Below are positions 4,376 to 59,106 of a DNA stretch of 64,000 bases, piece by piece. This DNA comes from Pseudomonadota bacterium (GTDB lineage Bacteria; Pseudomonadota; Gammaproteobacteria; SURF-13). A program made the position numbers and the translations under genes. The stretch spans positions 7,463 to 71,462 of the forward strand of contig JBFLZV010000004.1 of NCBI GenBank assembly GCA_040756035.1. Direction: 5' to 3'. Each line of letters begins with the position of its first letter. The stretch's first letter is position 1. Under the pieces are notes generated by a model, which saw only the letters and a list, made by a program, of their open reading frames with translations, was not told the origin of the DNA and did no database searches.

Positions 4376-4503
4376 CACTCACCCCCACTCTGTCCCCTTT
4401 GCGCTATGCTATCCATGCGCCGCGCAAAGTCCAGCCTGGCCATCGTGGCCCGGCGTTCCGCAACTTCGTTGCTTCACCCCTTGAAGGGGGCGGGAACGTA
4501 GCA
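4376..4503 (+). mobile_element. MITE/REP-like hairpin element, copy A
   Basis: Aligns by eye with 15507-15592 (ctgtcccctt...aaagtcc...) and with 15816-15861 (gcaac-N3-gttgcttcacccc...gggg...cgtagc). Confidence 0.7.
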
Positions 4504-5789: not shown

Positions 5790-6691
5790 TGAGCCAGAAG
5801 ACCACCGCCGTCATCATCGCGCTGATCGCGCTGGCGATCATCGCTTCGTTTTCGCTGTTCAGCGTGGGCCAGAGCGAGCGCGCGATTCTATTCCGTCTCG
5901 GTGAAGTGGTGCGCAGCGATTTCAAGCCCGGCCTGCATGTCAAGGTGCCGTTCATCACCAACGTGCGCAAATTCGACGCGCGCATTCAAACGCTGGAGGC
6001 CGAGCCGGAGCGCTATCTCACCAAGGAAAAGAAAAACGTCTACGTCGATTCGTTCGTAAAGTGGCGCATTGCCGACGTGGCGCGCTATTACACGGCGATG
6101 AGCGGCGACGAGTCGCGCGCCGGGTTGCGTTTGTACCAGATCGTCAAGGCCGGCCTGCGCGGCGAATTCGGCAAGCGCACCATTCAAGAAGTGGTGTCCG
6201 GCGACCGTCCGGTGATCATGAGCCTGCTCACCGTGGCCGCCAATCAACAGGCGCAGCAGTTCGGCATCGAAGTGGTGGACGTGCGCATCCGGCGCGTGGA
6301 TTTGCCGAAGGAAGTGAGCGCCTCGGTTTTCCAGCGCATGCAGGCGGAACGCGCCCGCGTCGCCAAGGAAACACGCGCGCGCGGCGCCGAGGCGGCGGAG
6401 CGCATTCGCGCCGACGCCGACCGCCAGCGCGTGGTGATTTTGTCGGAAGCATACCGCGACGCCGAGCGTATCCGCGGCGAGGGTGACGCCGAAGCGTCGA
6501 ATGTCTACGCCGGCGCGTACGGCAGCGATCAGGAATTCTACGCCCTGTACCGCAGCCTGAACGCTTATAAGAACACATTCGGCGGCGGCAAGGGCGGCAT
6601 GCTGGTGTTGGAGCCCAGTTCCGAATTCTTCAAGTATTTTAAAGGGCCGAAGGCCGCCGGCGGCGCGGCGGGCGTCGCCAGGCAGCCGTAA
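5789..6691 (+). CDS. hflC: FtsH protease modulator HflC
   Basis: N-terminal TM, SPFH domain, RMQAERARVA, FYALYRSLNAY; follows hflK. Confidence 0.97.
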   Translation: MSQKTTAVIIALIALAIIASFSLFSVGQSERAILFRLGEVVRSDFKPGLHVKVPFITNVRKFDARIQTLEAEPERYLTKEKKNVYVDSFVKWRIADVARYYTAMSGDESRAGLRLYQIVKAGLRGEFGKRTIQEVVSGDRPVIMSLLTVAANQQAQQFGIEVVDVRIRRVDLPKEVSASVFQRMQAERARVAKETRARGAEAAERIRADADRQRVVILSEAYRDAERIRGEGDAEASNVYAGAYGSDQEFYALYRSLNAYKNTFGGGKGGMLVLEPSSEFFKYFKGPKAAGGAAGVARQP

Positions 6692-14695: not shown

Positions 14696-14787
14696 CAAGT
14701 TGCAAGAGAAACGTCTAAGGAATCTCTGAATTATTCAGAGCTTCCTTAAATTTGATTTTCTCTTGTTGCTTAATGTTTGTCACTTGG
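14691..14787. repeat. Inverted heptamer element spanning the convergent hda/yqhA stops, with an internal 33-bp palindrome
   Basis: agtaaca-agttgca-agagaaa ... ttctctt-gttgctt-aatgttt-gtcactt. Core taaggaatctctgaattattcagagcttcctta at 14716-14748. Confidence 0.75.
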
Positions 14788-15384
14788 CGCTTTTCCAAGC
14801 GTCTTGACGGTTAGTGTTTGTTTTTCAGTTTCCCCGCTTGCGCTTTCAGCCCCATGCTCCTTTTGTTCGCCGGTGTGCGAAAGATAAATCGCCAGACCGA
14901 TCAAGGCGACGCTGCCGGCCAGGTACAGCAAATCGAGCGGCGTGGCGAAGCGCATGTTGATGGCGTGCTCGAAAAAACTGACGATCAAGATCATCAGAAT
15001 CACTTTCGCCAAGCGCGCCTTGAGGTCGTCCAGATTGTTGATCAGCAGCACGTTGGTAGCGCCAGCCGTGCTTGCCGCCTTGTCGATTTTGCTGACGAAT
15101 AATTCGTACAATCCGAAAGCGAAGATCAGCAACACCGTGGCGAGCAGATAACCGTCGACGATTTCCACCACGTGCGCGATGGTTTCGTCATGCAGCGCCT
15201 TGCGGCCCTCGGCGCCCAAGTCGGGCGAGGCGTAATCGGCGAGGTGTGCTACCATGTAATAGGCGTCGACGGTGGCCATGTAGAACATGGCAAGCGCCGC
15301 CGCCAGGCTGGCGGCGACCGCTGACAGCACCACGAAACGGCTGTCCCACAACAAACCTTCGAATAAAGCTTCCAGCTTTCTCAT
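14770..15384 (-). CDS. YqhA family (UPF0114) membrane protein
   Basis: FEGLLWDSRF, VVEIVDGYLLATVLLIFAFGLYELFVSKID, LDDLKARLAKVI. Confidence 0.85.
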   Translation of the reverse strand: MRKLEALFEGLLWDSRFVVLSAVAASLAAALAMFYMATVDAYYMVAHLADYASPDLGAEGRKALHDETIAHVVEIVDGYLLATVLLIFAFGLYELFVSKIDKAASTAGATNVLLINNLDDLKARLAKVILMILIVSFFEHAINMRFATPLDLLYLAGSVALIGLAIYLSHTGEQKEHGAESASGETEKQTLTVKTLGKAPSDKH

Positions 15385-15442
15385 GCACGTGATTACCTCT
15401 GGCAGGCGCGCGTCGCCGCGCGTCTAAGTCGGGATAGCATTA

Positions 15443-15861
15443 TTACTCAGGAGTCATAAAATAAGGCGACAAACCTTTATGAGATGACTCCTGAGCAAGC
15501 CCTGTTCACTCTACTCTCACCCTGTCCCCTTTTACGCTACGCCATCCTGCTCCGCATAAAAGTCCGGCCAAGCCCTCCATGGCTTGGCGGTCATGATGCA
15601 CATCCATGTGCATCACCCTACGGGCCGCCTAACGGCGGCGCCGTTTGGCAATCCTGCCAAACGGTCATGATGCACATCCATGTGCATCACCCTACGGGCC
15701 GCCTAACGGCGGCGCCGTTTGGCAATCCTGCCCAACGGTCATGATGCACATCCGTGTGCATCACCCTACGGGCCGCCTAACGGCGGCGCCGTTTGGCAAT
15801 CCTGCCAAACGGTCGGCAACCTCGTTGCTTCACCCCTAAACAGGGGGACGGGGACGTAGCT
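15443..15861 (+). mobile_element. MITE/REP-like element, copy B (composite, contains the tandem array)
   Basis: 5' inverted-repeat cap ttactcaggagtcat...atgactcctgagcaa (15443-15498). Body ends ccctgtcccc ... ggggacgggg (imperfect inverted repeat). Homologous to copies at 4376 and 35381. Confidence 0.8.
15588..15814 (+). repeat. Three tandem 74-bp units made of stacked hairpins
   Basis: cggtc recurs at 15588, 15662, 15736 and 15810. The units differ by only about one base each, and there are no unique spacers. Confidence 0.95.
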
Positions 15862-15895
15862 GAAATATAGTCTCACTTACTGACTTATGAGTAAC

Positions 15896-16204
15896 TCACT
15901 TGGCCGACGGCGGGGGCTGTGTTTGCAGGGCCTTGGCGCGCGCCTTCACGGCCTCGTTCTTAGCCGCAACGGCGTGCTCGCGCGCCTGGTCGTAGCGGCC
16001 GGCGTCCAAGGCCTGCTTGGCCTCGTCCAGCAGCCGCTCGGCGTTGTTAAAGTTGTCCGGCGCCTGTGTGGCCGCACCCGTCTCGCGCGCGGCAGCGAGC
16101 GCCTGGCGTGCGTCGCTCATCTCTTGCGTCGGAATGCTCGCGCACCCAATAGCCAAGCTCGCCGTCAGAACCAGCAGCTTGCAGTAGTACGCGGGGCGCT
16201 TCAT
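15896..16204 (-). CDS. DUF4398-like helical lipoprotein
   Basis: Lipobox LAIG-C, then PTQEMSDARQALAAAR...AERLLDEAKQAL...YDQAREHA. ATG at 16204. Confidence 0.75.
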   Translation of the reverse strand: MKRPAYYCKLLVLTASLAIGCASIPTQEMSDARQALAAARETGAATQAPDNFNNAERLLDEAKQALDAGRYDQAREHAVAAKNEAVKARAKALQTQPPPSAK

Positions 16205-20722: not shown

Positions 20723-20796
20723 CCAACGCAAAGACGCAAAGACGCCAAGAAATTCGATTTATATGAAATCTTAGCGTCTTAGCGTCTTCGCGTTGG
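20723..20796. repeat. Paired inverted ACGCAAAG-type arms between ilvH and ilvC
   Basis: ccaacgcaaagacgcaaagacgccaaga ... tcttagcgtcttagcgtcttcgcgttgg around an 18-bp AT-rich core. Confidence 0.85.
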
Positions 20797-21308: not shown

Positions 21309-21341
21309 AAAATCCAACGCAAAGACGCGAAGACGCGAAGA
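21309..21341. repeat. Solo ACGCAAAG-type arm between ilvI and ilvH
   Basis: aaaatccaacgcaaagacgcgaagacgcgaaga matches the reverse complement of 20769-20801 at 30/33 positions. Confidence 0.8.
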
Positions 21342-46028: not shown

Positions 46029-46160
46029 CTCACGCAAAGGCGCAAAGACGCAGAGAGCGCAGATTTAAAATTCCCAGAAAGCCAGTAATGGCCGATTTAG
46101 TCCACGCATGGTTCATGATGCTTGAAACATTTTTATTGCGTCTTTGCGCCTTTGCGTGAG
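46029..46160. repeat. Perfect 24-bp inverted arms around an AT-rich core inside the ccm operon
   Basis: ctcacgcaaaggcgcaaagacgca (46029-46052) / tgcgtctttgcgcctttgcgtgag (46137-46160). Confidence 0.92.
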
Positions 46161-50897: not shown

Positions 50898-52066
50898 TGA
50901 ACAGGAGTTGGCAAGCCGGACTGGCGGCGCTGGCGCTACTCGGCATCGGCGGTTGCACCACGGTCAACGATTTTTTCGCCGGCAAGGATAACTCCGATCC
51001 GCCTGCGCCGCTGACGGCGCTGCAATCCGGCGTGGCCGTGCAAACGTTGTGGTCCGCGCGCGTCGGCGCCGGCAGCGACAAACAATATATCAAACTGTCG
51101 CCCATCGTAGTGGGCGGCAAGGCGTTCGCCGCCGACCGCAAGGGGCGCGTCAGCGCCTACGACGCCGCCGGCGGACAACAGTTGTGGAGCGCGGACACCA
51201 AGGCGCCCATCTCCGGCGGGCCGGGCAACGGCGAGGGTTTGGTGTTGGTCGGCACCAGCGAGGCCGAGGTGCTGGCGCTGGACGAGAACACCGGCAAGGA
51301 GGTATGGCGCGCGCGTGTTTCCAGCGAGGTGTTGTCCGCGCCGCGCGCCGCGCAAGGCCGCGTGGTGGTGCGCACCATCGACGGTAAACTGTTCGGCTTG
51401 AACGCCGCGGACGGCAAGCGCGTGTGGGTATACGAGCAAACGGTGCCGGCGCTCACGCTGCGCGCCACCAGCGCCCCGTTGTTGGCGGATGATAAAGTCA
51501 TCGGCGGTTTCGCCAGCAGCAAACTCGTCGCGCTGAGTTTGAGCGAAGGCAAGTTGCTGTGGGAAACCGCCGTCGCCGAGCCGCGCGGGCGCACCGAATT
51601 GGAACGCCTGGTCGATATCAGCGGCGAGCCGCAAGCGCAGGACGGCGTCGTGTACGTGGCGAGCTTCCAAGGGCGTATCGCGGCGGTGGAAATGGACAGC
51701 GGACGCCTGCTGTGGGCGCGCGACATGTCCTCGTATTCCGGCGTCGGCGTCGACGAGAGCATGGTGTATGTCACCGACGCTCAAAGTCACGTGCTGGCCC
51801 TGGATCGCCGCGACGGACGCACGCTCTGGAAGCAGGATAAACTGCACGCGCGCGGCGTCACCGCGCCCGCCGCTTACGGCGATTACGTTGTGGTCGGCGA
51901 TTTCGAAGGTTATCTGCACTGGCTGGCGCGCGACGACGGCAGCTTCGCGGCGCGCGTGCGCGTCGACGACGCCGGCATCATCGCCGCGCCCACCGTCAGT
52001 GACGATACGCTTTACGTGAGCGGCAAGGGCGGCGTATTGGCCGCTTTTAAGGCAGATACAAGATAA
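50897..52066 (+). CDS. bamB: Outer membrane assembly lipoprotein BamB
   Basis: Lipobox IGGC, PQQ-like propeller repeats, [20 protein letters not shown]. Confidence 0.94.
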
Positions 52067-52172
52067 AGGGGAAAGGGGAAAGGGAAAAGGGAAAAGACCT
52101 TACCTGCATTCCCCCTTTTCCCTTGTATCTTTTCCCTTTCCCCTTGTCTCCTGTACCTTTGCCCTTTTCTCT
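52054..52172. repeat. Inverted heptamer array between bamB and der
   Basis: agataca-agataaa-ggggaaa-ggggaaa-gggaaaa... (overlaps the bamB stop) versus ...ttttccc-ttgtatc-ttttt-ccctttc-cccttgt... Confidence 0.85.
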
Positions 52173-58965: not shown

Positions 58966-59106
58966 AGTAGGGAAAAGGGAAAAGATACAAGTAACAGGGC
59001 AAAGGGAAAAGATACAAGGGAAAAGGGAGAAGACAAGGGAGATTCTTTCCTTTTCCCTTTTCCCTTTTCCCTTTTCCCTTTGCCCTTTGTCCTTTGTCCT
59101 TTGTTC
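58966..59106. repeat. Long inverted heptamer array between guaB and guaA
   Basis: agggaaa-agggaaa-agataca-agtaaca-gggcaaa... versus ttccctt x4, tgccctt, tgtcctt x2. Confidence 0.92.

What the first reader, a model, noticed from the sequence alone, without database searches (positions are those of the whole stretch)
15588..15814. 3 x 74-bp tandem array expanded exactly at the internal junction of a small element
Seen: three nearly identical 74-bp units, each with four stacked hairpins (tgatgcac/gtgcatca, ccc-tac-ggg, gccgcc-taac-ggcggc, ccgtttggca/tgccaaacgg), bounded by cggtc. Copy A (4376-4503) has the same left and right flanks joined directly without the array. The units are themselves miniature versions of the module order. 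Near identity suggests recent amplification. It is not CRISPR, because there are no unique spacers.
Basis: seen in the sequence. Interest (0 to 1): 0.62.

Follow-up and report, generated by a model that had tools for sequence, protein, structure and literature searches.

The report
Tandemly amplified four-hairpin mobile repeat
The three 74-base units are a recent local triplication of a small, four-hairpin, non-coding DNA repeat that is scattered through this uncultured bacterium and many related lineages; this is mostly ordinary selfish-repeat behaviour, although the repeat family itself is not in the RNA-family catalogue searched.

Summary
Window 15588-15814 is 3.07 head-to-tail copies of a 74-nt unit that are 97.5-98.7% identical. 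Copy A (4376-4503) aligns with both flanks across the junction and has no unit.

The unit is not special to this locus. It is a discrete four-hairpin module:
- 14-17 copies in this genome and 26 in the nearest MAG.
- Present in 15 of 20 genomes of the order.
- Found by covariance model in 41 of 151 families sampled across the class, where head-to-tail pairs and triplets recur.

Three stems co-vary strongly. TCC (GGA on the other strand) is invariant in two loops.

Filled and empty site pairs show that the unit inserts as a block. A larger element carrying one unit sits in frame inside gyrA here and in none of 16 relatives.

At this locus the structure is nested three deep: a 151-bp MITE-like repeat, a hairpin chain inside it, and the tripled unit inside that. 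The nearest relative lacks all of it.

I read it as a BIME-2/BOX-like copy-number expansion of a mobile REP-like module. A CsrA-sponge reading of the minus strand is not excluded, but orientation, synteny and Rfam give it no support.

Earlier notes of this scan describe analogous amplified GGA-loop hairpin repeats on other DNA, but no look-alike of this unit.

The parts
15588..15661 (+). Unit 1 of the four-hairpin module (H1 15594-15615, CCC-TAC-GGG motif, H3, H4 15641-15664). It matches the array consensus at both variable sites.
   Evidence: (covariance model R1, 104.5 bits)
15662..15735 (+). Unit 2, with a private A>C at 15732 in the 3' arm of H4.
   Evidence: 100 bits
15736..15809 (+). Unit 3, with a private A>G at 15754 in the variable loop position of H1.
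   Evidence: 103.9 bits
15810..15814 (+). Closing CGGTC. This is the 5-nt junction shared by all head-to-tail units. It equals the sequence that precedes unit 1 (15588-15592).
15530..15587 (+). Left modules of the inner hairpin chain: a hairpin at 15530-15561 with a TCC loop, and hairpin GCCAAGCC-CTCCAT-GGCTTGGC at 15567-15588.
   Evidence: collinear with copy A
15815..15832 (+). Right module of the inner chain (GCAAC-CTC-GTTGC hairpin plus TCA). Other copies have a co-varying GCCGC-TTCG-GCGGC type hairpin followed by TCACCC here.
15443..15529 (+). Left arm of the outer MITE-like repeat: cap hairpin 15443-15498, then CTAC...CACCCTGTCCCC. In many copies it lies directly next to the right arm.
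   Evidence: I10, I11
15833..15895 (+). Right arm of the outer repeat (CCCCTAAACAGGGGGACGGGGACGTAGC...TGAGTAA). Its end is a 23-nt inverted repeat of 15443-15465.
   Evidence: I11
4376..4503 (+). Copy A: the same inner chain without any 74-nt unit (junction GGCGTTC|CGCAAC) and without the cap hairpin.
14770..15384 (-). Downstream neighbour on the minus strand: a UPF0114 (YqhA-type) membrane protein. The array lies 204 nt upstream of its start codon.
   Evidence: PF03350, 115.5 bits
15896..16282 (-). Upstream neighbour on the minus strand: a DUF4398 lipoprotein-like gene. Its stop codon lies 82 nt from the array.
   Evidence: PF14346, 35.6 bits

Best explanation
The stretch is three head-to-tail copies of a 74-nt non-coding DNA module built from four consecutive hairpins. 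The module belongs to a mobile, REP/BIME-like repeat family that is widespread in this class of Proteobacteria.

Shown:
- The module is a discrete unit that appears at non-orthologous sites as a block.
- It combines with other small hairpin modules into mosaic chains.
- Such chains insert into intergenic DNA, into other repeats and even in frame into gyrA.
- Here a chain sits in the central hairpin of a 151-bp MITE-like repeat, between a DUF4398 gene and a UPF0114 gene. The nearest relative has none of it at that site.
- The three units are much more alike than any other pair of copies.

Inferred:
- After the chain arrived with one unit, the unit was duplicated twice on the spot. The likely route is slipped-strand mispairing or unequal recombination between the CGGTC repeats that bound it, helped by the stable hairpins. 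This is the route by which boxB modules of pneumococcal BOX elements or the Y-Z2 units of E. coli BIME-2 are thought to vary in number.
- Units insert just after a GTT/GGT-type sequence and themselves end in CGGT. Each unit therefore rebuilds a landing site at its own 3' end. This explains why head-to-tail pairs of unlike units also occur, and it offers a second route to arrays.
- The array most likely has no dedicated function for the neighbouring genes. It is selfish or neutral DNA whose conserved loops serve its own propagation, by an enzyme not identified here.
For: Array and near-identity.

Dispersal in this genome: 12 BLAST and 14-17 covariance-model copies on 10-13 contigs.

Dispersal in relatives: 26 copies in G002, and 15 of 20 genomes of the order have at least one. 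Across the class, 41 of 151 families have a match, and no Rfam family matched 12 sampled loci from eight of those genomes.

Structure: 95.2% of cells paired with 9 compensated pairs in the family set, and 94.1% with 17 of 27 compensated pairs class-wide, each with 0 of 500 shuffles as good.

Mobility of the single unit:
- G012 filled site gcACGTTC|unit|ACGTTCcagagc against empty ggcACGTTCcagagc in three congeners.
- G013 filled site gtgagtt|74 nt|gggcatt against empty gtgagttAgggcatt in G017.

Mobility of the chain: a 51-codon in-frame insert in the gyrA C-terminal domain, absent from all 16 relatives with a gyrA match, and flanked by CCCC.

Nesting: the outer arms are adjacent in many copies here and in relatives, and they have 23-nt terminal inverted repeats.

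The orthologous intergenic region in G002 is about 110 bp with no element. No unit lies near 80 metagenomic UPF0114 homologues.

Other head-to-tail sets: C30 x2, C64 x2, G002 C130 x2, G008 C16 x2 (overlapping coordinates only), G132 x2 and x3 with the same shared junction.
Against: No read-level or strain-level data exist, so the true copy number and its variability are unknown (the best metagenomic relatives of the neighbouring gene are at most 62% identical).

Slippage and re-insertion cannot be told apart for three near-identical units.

No mobilising enzyme was identified:
- The genome's RAYT is flanked by a different REP.
- The two Y1+HTH genes are flanked by GGGGTCA heptamers.
- There is no bias with respect to GC skew: 79 against 71 hairpins, and 5 against 5 units.

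Loops that stay invariant across very divergent copies show constraint, and that constraint could in principle be a host function rather than mobility.
Confidence: 0.75

Rival explanations
1. CsrA decoy or CsrA-controlled leader. Both flanking genes are on the minus strand. A minus-strand transcript of the intergenic region would display two GGA-loop hairpins per unit (CA-N-GGA-UG and CAGGAUW) plus two or three more in the flanking modules, so about 8-9 sites. Amplification would then raise its capacity to bind the global regulator CsrA, either titrating it or putting the UPF0114 gene under CsrA control.
For: TCC is invariant in the H1 and H4 loops of 31 of 31 copies. On the minus strand, 25 of 30 H1 loops read AYGGAY, within CA-N-GGA-UG. 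The published CsrA SELEX consensus is RUACARGGAUGU; I checked only that the string occurs in papers, and the attribution to the original SELEX study is from my own knowledge.

The genome encodes CsrA (91 bits). The best Rfam match, although below threshold, is RsmW on the minus strand (29.3 bits, E 0.004). At this locus the GGA strand is the mRNA strand.
Against: - RsmW stays far below its gathering score of 52 bits, and TwoAYGGAY gives no hit in the genome.
- No promoter-like or terminator-like site was predicted inside the intergenic region.
- There is no orientation preference. Genome-wide, GGA/TCC-loop hairpins between co-directional genes split 68 GGA-sense to 53 TCC-sense (p 0.2). Unit loci split about 5-6 to 3.
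- Wobble pairs lean the wrong way: G-T 23 against A-C 9 on the TCC strand.
- The element is missing at the orthologous site in G002 and near 80 homologues of the neighbouring gene.
- CsrA is present in 123 of 151 sampled genomes. It is found in 36 of the 41 with the repeat and about 87 of the 110 without, so co-occurrence says nothing.
Confidence: 0.1
2. The array was built by serial, site-specific re-insertion rather than by slippage. An unidentified enzyme inserts the unit 3' of a (C)GKT sequence. Because the unit ends in CGGT, a copy of the resident unit landed twice behind itself.
For: Both solo insertions with known empty sites lie directly after GTT, with no consistent target duplication.

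The five bases before a unit are CGKTC in most copies whatever the neighbour, with T and C invariant in 31 of 31.

Several head-to-tail pairs consist of unlike units. The second unit at G002 C130 belongs to the loop-insertion subfamily. The C30 pair shares its 5' half only. The second unit of C64 is diverged and lacks H3.
Against: The three units here differ by one substitution each, which is what in-place duplication gives most simply. No candidate enzyme is linked to the repeat. There is no replication-strand bias of the kind reported for IS200/IS605-type single-strand transposition (that expectation is from my own knowledge). Only two empty-site pairs exist, and one of them is ambiguous over 6 nt.
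Confidence: 0.2
3. Assembly artefact: a short-read assembler inflated or collapsed a repeat, and the real locus has a different number of units.
For: The genome is a 96-contig draft. A period of 74 with 98% identity is shorter than typical k-mer or read spans. Extra copies identical to unit 1 would be invisible.
Against: The three units are distinguishable by private substitutions, two of them 22 nt apart across the unit 2/3 boundary. The array has unique flanks on both sides within a 73-kb contig. Two- and three-unit arrays of the same family occur in other assemblies (G132, G008).
Confidence: 0.04

Closest known systems
BIME-2 / REP clusters of E. coli and REP families generally (GTAG- and CGTC-tagged REPs, Di Nocera et al. 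2013, PMC3733652; RAYT/REPIN work, PMC2817692, PMC3116915)
   Same: - Small GC-rich palindromic units with conserved unpaired tags, assembled with linker motifs into mosaic intergenic elements.
- Compensated stems.
- Intragenic in-frame copies, which PMC3733652 reports as frequent in replication and repair genes.
- Tandem repetition of a multi-hairpin unit, as in BIME-2 (my own knowledge).
- H1 resembles the CGTC-REP layout described (tag, stem starting AT, 4-nt loop, short C-rich tail), but the tag here is CGKTC and the tail CCC.
   Different: - All hairpins of the unit and all units lie in direct, not alternating or inverted, orientation.
- The repeated unit is a fixed set of four different hairpins, 74-80 nt.
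- Copy number is low (14-26 per genome).
- The only RAYT in the genome is flanked by an unrelated GTAG REP.
BOX elements of Streptococcus pneumoniae, boxA-(boxB)n-boxC
   Same: A modular non-coding repeat in which one internal module varies in copy number between copies, from zero (copy A) through one (most copies) to several (this locus), while the end modules stay single.
   Different: No sequence relationship and a different phylum. BOX modules are not a chain of four co-varying hairpins. No experimental data exist here.
Rickettsia palindromic elements (RPE) and other repeats translated in frame
   Same: The chain element carrying one unit is inserted in frame in an essential gene (gyrA C-terminal domain) and adds 51 residues without a stop.
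   Different: This applies to the copy on contig C29, not to the array in the window, which is intergenic. The period of 74 is not a multiple of three.
Csr/Rsm decoy sRNAs (CsrB, RsmX/Y/Z/W) and the TwoAYGGAY motif (RF01731; Weinberg et al. 2010, PMC2864571)
   Same: Several hairpins with GGA in the loop on one strand. H1 loops read AYGGAY. There is a weak RsmW match on the minus strand.
   Different: All Rfam gathering scores are missed and RF01731 gives no hit. No promoter-like or terminator-like site was predicted inside the intergenic region. The repeat is dispersed in both orientations and is mobile.
MIRU-type VNTRs of mycobacteria (my own knowledge)
   Same: A dispersed 40-100-bp intergenic unit that occurs in variable tandem copy number at different loci.
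   Different: MIRUs are not hairpin chains and often overlap short reading frames. Variability between strains is untested here.

Membership tests
REP / REPIN mobilised by a RAYT | The same palindromes flank the RAYT gene (REPtron). | tested here: not met
   The RAYT at G000:C2:48034-48563 (NF047646, 200 bits) is flanked by GTAG-GTTGGGGT...ACCCCAAC REPs. About 23 such REPs exist, mostly inverted doublets. None of the four hairpins of the unit occurs there.
REP / REPIN mobilised by a RAYT | A conserved GTAG (or CGTC) tetranucleotide directly 5' of a single 20-40-bp palindrome, with units mostly in inverted pairs. | tested here: inconclusive
   H1 is preceded by CGKTC, with T and C invariant. 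This resembles the CGTC tag described in PMC3733652 but is not identical to it. Units are in direct, never inverted, order.
BIME (bacterial interspersed mosaic element) | A mosaic of palindromic units and linker motifs, with tandem repetition of a composite unit. | tested here: met
   The same unit is combined with different left and right hairpin modules. It is repeated head to tail 2-3 times at several loci.
BIME (bacterial interspersed mosaic element) | Successive palindromic units in alternating orientation. | tested here: not met
   All hairpins and units point the same way within an element.
MITE | Terminal inverted repeats and a fixed-length target-site duplication. | tested here: not met
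   For the 74-nt unit, the ends CATGA... and ...ACGGT are not inverted repeats. One insertion has a 6-nt ambiguous repeat and the other has none. The outer 151-bp repeat does have 23-nt inverted ends (I11).
TwoAYGGAY RNA motif (RF01731) | A match to the Rfam covariance model at its gathering score. | tested here: not met
   No match at E <= 1 in the whole genome or in the window. The control genomes also gave nothing, so sensitivity is unproven.
Csr/Rsm decoy sRNA | A dedicated transcription unit with many GGA hairpins that reaches the Rfam family thresholds. | tested here: not met
   GGA hairpins are present on the minus strand, but RsmW scores 29.3 against a gathering score of 52. No promoter-like or terminator-like site was predicted inside the intergenic region. 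There is no orientation bias. CsrA binding itself cannot be tested with these tools.
IS200/IS605-type single-strand transposition (non-autonomous derivative) | Insertion 3' of a specific short sequence without target duplication, and orientation bias towards the lagging-strand template. | tested here: inconclusive
   Both solo insertions follow GTT. There is no bias against GC skew: 79 against 71 hairpins and 5 against 5 units. The skew is weak in this draft genome.
CRISPR array | Short direct repeats separated by unique spacers of similar length. | tested here: not met
   Units abut directly with no spacers.
tRNA or tRNA-like gene (74 nt) | A cloverleaf detectable by ARAGORN or the Rfam tRNA model. 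| tested here: not met
   No tRNA or tmRNA in 15300-16000 and no Rfam tRNA hit.

The most novel reading that the evidence does not exclude
The four-hairpin unit is a new kind of non-autonomous mobile element. It inserts just after a GKT sequence and carries the same sequence at its own 3' end, so it builds head-to-tail arrays and hairpin chains by landing behind itself or behind other modules. On this reading the invariant TCC loops of its first and last hairpins are the recognition sites of a still unknown host or mobile enzyme. In some orientations they may double as CsrA-binding GGA loops on the transcript.
Probability: 0.2. Interest if true: 0.7.

Novelty: new variant of a known kind. Interest (0 to 1): 0.4.

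Why it matters
The array itself is ordinary: a copy-number expansion inside a mosaic repeat. It could serve as a VNTR-type marker for this uncultured lineage.

The more useful result is the family behind it. It is a 74-80-nt module of four hairpins with very strong compensatory evolution and invariant loops. It is present in roughly a quarter of the families sampled across the class, it matches no Rfam family, and it inserts as a block, even in frame into gyrA. No transposase could be tied to it.

If its landing rule (behind GKT, ending in GKT) holds, it would explain how hairpin chains and BIME-like mosaics are assembled. [quoted passage not shown]

Tried and rejected
- Rfam at gathering score on the whole window gave nothing. 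At permissive E-values only a weak RsmW match and chance miRNA hits appeared. RF01731 on the genome gave nothing.
- tRNA-likeness of the 74-mer: rejected.
- Coding: the period of 74 is not a multiple of 3, and the plus-strand ORFs are repeat read-through in shifting frames. Rejected.
- RAYT link: the RAYT has its own unrelated REP. The two Y1+HTH genes are flanked by GGGGTCA heptamers. One shared 12-mer, TTCGCTTCGCTC, between the REP loop and the H1-loop-insertion subfamily is unexplained.
- Orientation relative to transcription and relative to GC skew: no bias.
- Strand of folding from wobble pairs: G-T 23 against A-C 9, mostly at loop-closing positions. This is weak and the rows are related.
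- Co-occurrence with CsrA across 151 genomes: uninformative, because CsrA is in 81% of them.
- The loop-insertion subfamily at four loci in four genera: the loci are not orthologous, so it is not an ancient conserved locus.
The metagenome scan found no relative closer than 62% amino-acid identity of the neighbouring gene.
- Exact-pattern scan of 185,579 species genomes: only the G002 MAG (Gammaproteobacteria bacterium SMAG_U8279) was returned. The covariance model was needed to see the wider family.
- The 2026 bioRxiv preprint that discusses TwoAYGGAY at length (10.64898/2026.09.22.753630) could not be opened. A term count shows 52 mentions of TwoAYGGAY and none of CsrA.

Full report
**1. The observation**

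Tandem Repeats Finder reports one strong array in the window: 15588-15814, period 74, 3.1 copies, 98% matches, no indels, score 440. Read directly, it is three units (15588-15661, 15662-15735, 15736-15809) closed by CGGTC (15810-15814). The same five bases start every unit.

Unit 2 has one private change (A>C at 15732) and unit 3 another (A>G at 15754). Pairwise identities are 98.7, 98.7 and 97.5%.

The whole intergenic region folds far better than shuffles on either strand, with z of -13.9 and -9.9. Copy A (4376-4503) aligns collinearly with the locus once the array is taken out: 77.6% identity over 134 columns, junction GGCGTTC|CGCAAC against GGCGGTC[array]GGCAAC.

**2. The unit is a dispersed module, not a local curiosity**

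The window is contig C4:7463-71462 of a 2.08-Mb, 96-contig, 60.5% G+C genome estimated 99.9% complete. BLAST finds the 74-mer on nine further contigs.

It usually occurs as one copy between a left pair of TCC-loop hairpins and a right GCCGC-TTCG-GCGGC-type hairpin followed by TCACCC. That is the junction that is empty in copy A and tripled here.

It also occurs with quite different neighbours (C30, C14), as two unlike units in tandem (C30, C64), and truncated (C14). A covariance model built from 31 copies finds the following:
- 14-17 copies in this genome.
- 26 copies in the nearest genome G002, a soil MAG labelled Gammaproteobacteria bacterium SMAG_U8279.
- At least one copy in 15 of the 20 genomes held for the order.
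- A match in 41 of 151 genomes drawn one per family across the class, with scores up to 84 bits and up to 31 copies.

In those distant genomes the same architecture is plain: KKTC-ATG, H1 with a TCC loop, CACCC-T-NC-GGGC, H3, TGC, H4 with a TCC loop, GTC. Head-to-tail pairs and one triplet of near-identical units occur in G132 (L100, L101). No Rfam family matched 12 sampled loci from eight of those genomes.

**3. Structure**

On the family alignment, 95.2% of pair cells are standard pairs. Nine of 27 pairs show changes on both sides (58 cells). No shuffle out of 500 reaches this, and sliding the partners drops pairing to 30-39%. On the class-wide set, 17 of 27 pairs are compensated.

H1, H3 and H4 are therefore real helices. 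The CCC/GGG 'hairpin' shows no compensatory change, never varies in the class-wide set, and may be a sequence motif.

TCC is invariant in the loops of H1 and H4 in 31 of 31 copies. Mismatches are few and only mildly asymmetric (G-T 23 against A-C 9, mostly at loop-closing positions). The stems are essentially Watson-Crick on both strands, as expected for a DNA-level palindrome.

**4. Mobility**

Four observations show that the unit and its carriers move.

(a) Single units.
- In G012 the filled site reads gcACGTTC|67 nt|ACGTTCcagagc, and three congeners have ggcACGTTCcagagc.
- In G013 a 74-nt unit lies between gtgagtt and gggcatt, where G017 has gtgagttAgggcatt.
- Both insertions follow GTT. 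One shows a 6-nt ambiguity and the other shows no duplication.

(b) A chain carrying one unit. On contig C29 it sits inside gyrA, in the C-terminal beta-propeller domain (PF03989). The frame stays open, and 51 codons replace one codon. All 16 relatives with a gyrA match lack the insert. The insert is flanked by CCCC on the element's strand.

(c) The locus in the window is nested.
- Stretches 15443-15529 and 15833-15895 are the two arms of another repeat. They lie side by side in many copies in this genome (for example C16:17932-18082, 151 bp) and in relatives, and they end in 23-nt inverted repeats (I11).
- The hairpin chain lies in that repeat's central GC-rich hairpin, again between CCCC runs.
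- The orthologous spacer in G002 is about 110 bp and carries none of this.
- None of 80 metagenomic loci with a homologue of the UPF0114 gene has a unit.

(d) A subfamily with a 22-nt insertion in the H1 loop. It occurs at four non-orthologous loci in four genera at 84-96% pairwise identity (89-96% to the copy in this genome). That is well above the 69-76% nucleotide identity of the flanking genes between this genome and the other genera of the family.

**5. How the array arose**

The three units are 97.5-98.7% alike, whereas they are 72-94% (median 87.5%) identical to the other copies in the genome. The amplification is therefore local and recent compared with dispersal.

The simplest route is duplication by slipped-strand mispairing or unequal exchange between the bounding CGGTC repeats. 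Once two copies exist, further gain and loss is easy.

A second route cannot be excluded. Units insert behind GKT and end in CGGT, so each unit renews a landing site behind itself. This would explain head-to-tail pairs of unlike units. The second unit at G002 C130 is of the loop-insertion subfamily. The C30 pair shares only its 5' half. The second unit of C64 is diverged and lacks H3.

I could not identify an enzyme:
- The one clear RAYT (NF047646, 200 bits) is flanked by its own GTAG-GTTGGGGT REPs.
- Two Y1+HTH genes are flanked by GGGGTCA heptamers.
- There is no bias with respect to GC skew.

**6. Does it do something for the cell?**

Both neighbours are on the minus strand: the DUF4398 gene ends 82 nt to the right of the array, and the UPF0114 gene starts 204 nt to its left. 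Any read-through RNA would therefore carry the complement of the units.

On that strand H1 reads CA-N-GGA-UG (AYGGAY in 25 of 30 copies) and H4 reads CAGGAUW. These resemble CsrA/RsmA sites, whose SELEX consensus is RUACARGGAUGU (I checked only that the string occurs in papers). The genome has csrA. The best, sub-threshold Rfam match is RsmW on the minus strand (29.3 bits against a gathering score of 52). Earlier notes of this scan raised the same idea for similar repeats elsewhere.

My tests give it no support as the reason for the repeat:
- There is no orientation preference. Hairpins between co-directional genes split 68 to 53 (p 0.2), and unit loci split about 5-6 to 3.
- No promoter-like or terminator-like site was predicted inside the intergenic region.
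- There is no conserved synteny.
- TwoAYGGAY does not match.
- CsrA is too common in the class for co-occurrence to be informative.

Binding as a side effect at this locus remains possible and is testable.

**7. Comparison with known systems**

The closest known behaviour is that of mosaic REP-type repeats. These include BIMEs of enterobacteria, with tandem Y-Z2 units in BIME-2 (my own knowledge), and the GTAG/CGTC-tagged REP super-families of Di Nocera et al. (PMC3733652). That paper reports intragenic copies, many in replication and repair genes, and notes that CGTC REPs lack a dedicated transposase.

The variable internal module recalls pneumococcal BOX elements, boxA-(boxB)n-boxC (my own knowledge). 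The gyrA copy recalls Rickettsia RPEs.

The differences are these:
- The unit is a fixed four-hairpin set.
- Everything is in direct orientation.
- Copy number per genome is low while the phylogenetic spread is wide.
- Neither a RAYT link nor MITE ends are present.

It is thus a new variant of a known kind. The array itself is an ordinary expansion.

**8. Limits**

No reads could be examined. No same-species genome exists in the collections, so copy-number variation is untested. Only two empty-site pairs define the landing rule. The relatives are kin, so their counts are not independent. The E-values of my covariance model are rough. A 2026 preprint that treats TwoAYGGAY at length could not be opened.

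Noticed in passing
G000:C29:20790-20942 (not in the window; gyrA ORF C29:20435-23161, minus strand): A hairpin chain carrying one four-hairpin unit is inserted in frame in the C-terminal beta-propeller domain of gyrA. It adds 51 codons (QGGEAADRLAGLPNG...GMRGAVG) in place of one codon. All 16 relatives with a gyrA match lack it, and the insert is flanked by CCCC.
   Followed up: yes
G000:C2:47951-48603, with further copies on C7, C11, C12, C13, C28, C32, C60, C90 and C96: A bona fide RAYT gene (NF047646, 200 bits) is flanked by its own REP, GTAG-GTTGGGGTGAGCAACGCGAACCCCAAC. About 23 REPs exist in the genome, mostly as inverted doublets (REPINs). This family is distinct from the four-hairpin unit.
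   Followed up: partly
G000:C23:23034-23129; L030 (G007), L052 (G002), L031 (G012): A subfamily of the unit has a 22-nt insertion in the H1 loop (GAACCCTTCGCTTCGCTCTTCC). It lies at four non-orthologous loci in four genera at 84-96% pairwise identity. The insertion shares the 12-mer TTCGCTTCGCTC with the loop of some RAYT-associated REPs. The meaning is unknown.
   Followed up: partly
G000:C30:386-1258 and G000:C1:51279-52250: Two genes of about 290-325 aa have a Y1 transposase domain plus a C-terminal HTH. They are flanked by runs of AAAGGGGTCA / TGACCCC heptamer-type repeats, not by hairpin modules.
   Followed up: partly
L032 (G013:C247:~5983-6061) against G017:C98:2332: A solo 74-nt unit interrupts what looks like a membrane-protein gene (...AALVS|WGIALFEYLLQVP...) and brings in an in-frame TGA. 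The congener G017 has TAG at the expected Trp codon of the same gene. The gene may be decaying in both.
   Followed up: partly
window 15443-15529 plus 15833-15895; short form G000:C16:17932-18082: The outer repeat is a 151-bp element with 23-nt inverted ends (TTACTCAGGAGTCAT... / ...ATGAGTAA) and a cap hairpin. It is abundant in several genera of the family (for example nine listed left-arm copies in G005).
   Followed up: partly
L104 and L105 (G070:C1:238980-239520 and 2418650-2419250): In a distant complete genome, units of the same family are repeated with periods of 140-215 nt directly beside tRNA genes.
   Followed up: no
window 20726-20793, 21317-21341, 46033-46061; also beside units on G000:C30 and C64: Short runs of 8-nt units (ACGCAAAG / TCTTAGCG / CGCAAAGG, about three copies each) often lie next to hairpin-chain elements.
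   Followed up: no
window 52065-52171 and 58969-59103: Inverted arrays of 7-nt units (AAAGGGA x4.6 facing CCCTTTT x8; AGGGAAA x9 facing CCTTTTC/CCTTTGC x6-8). This is another repeat type and was not examined.
   Followed up: no
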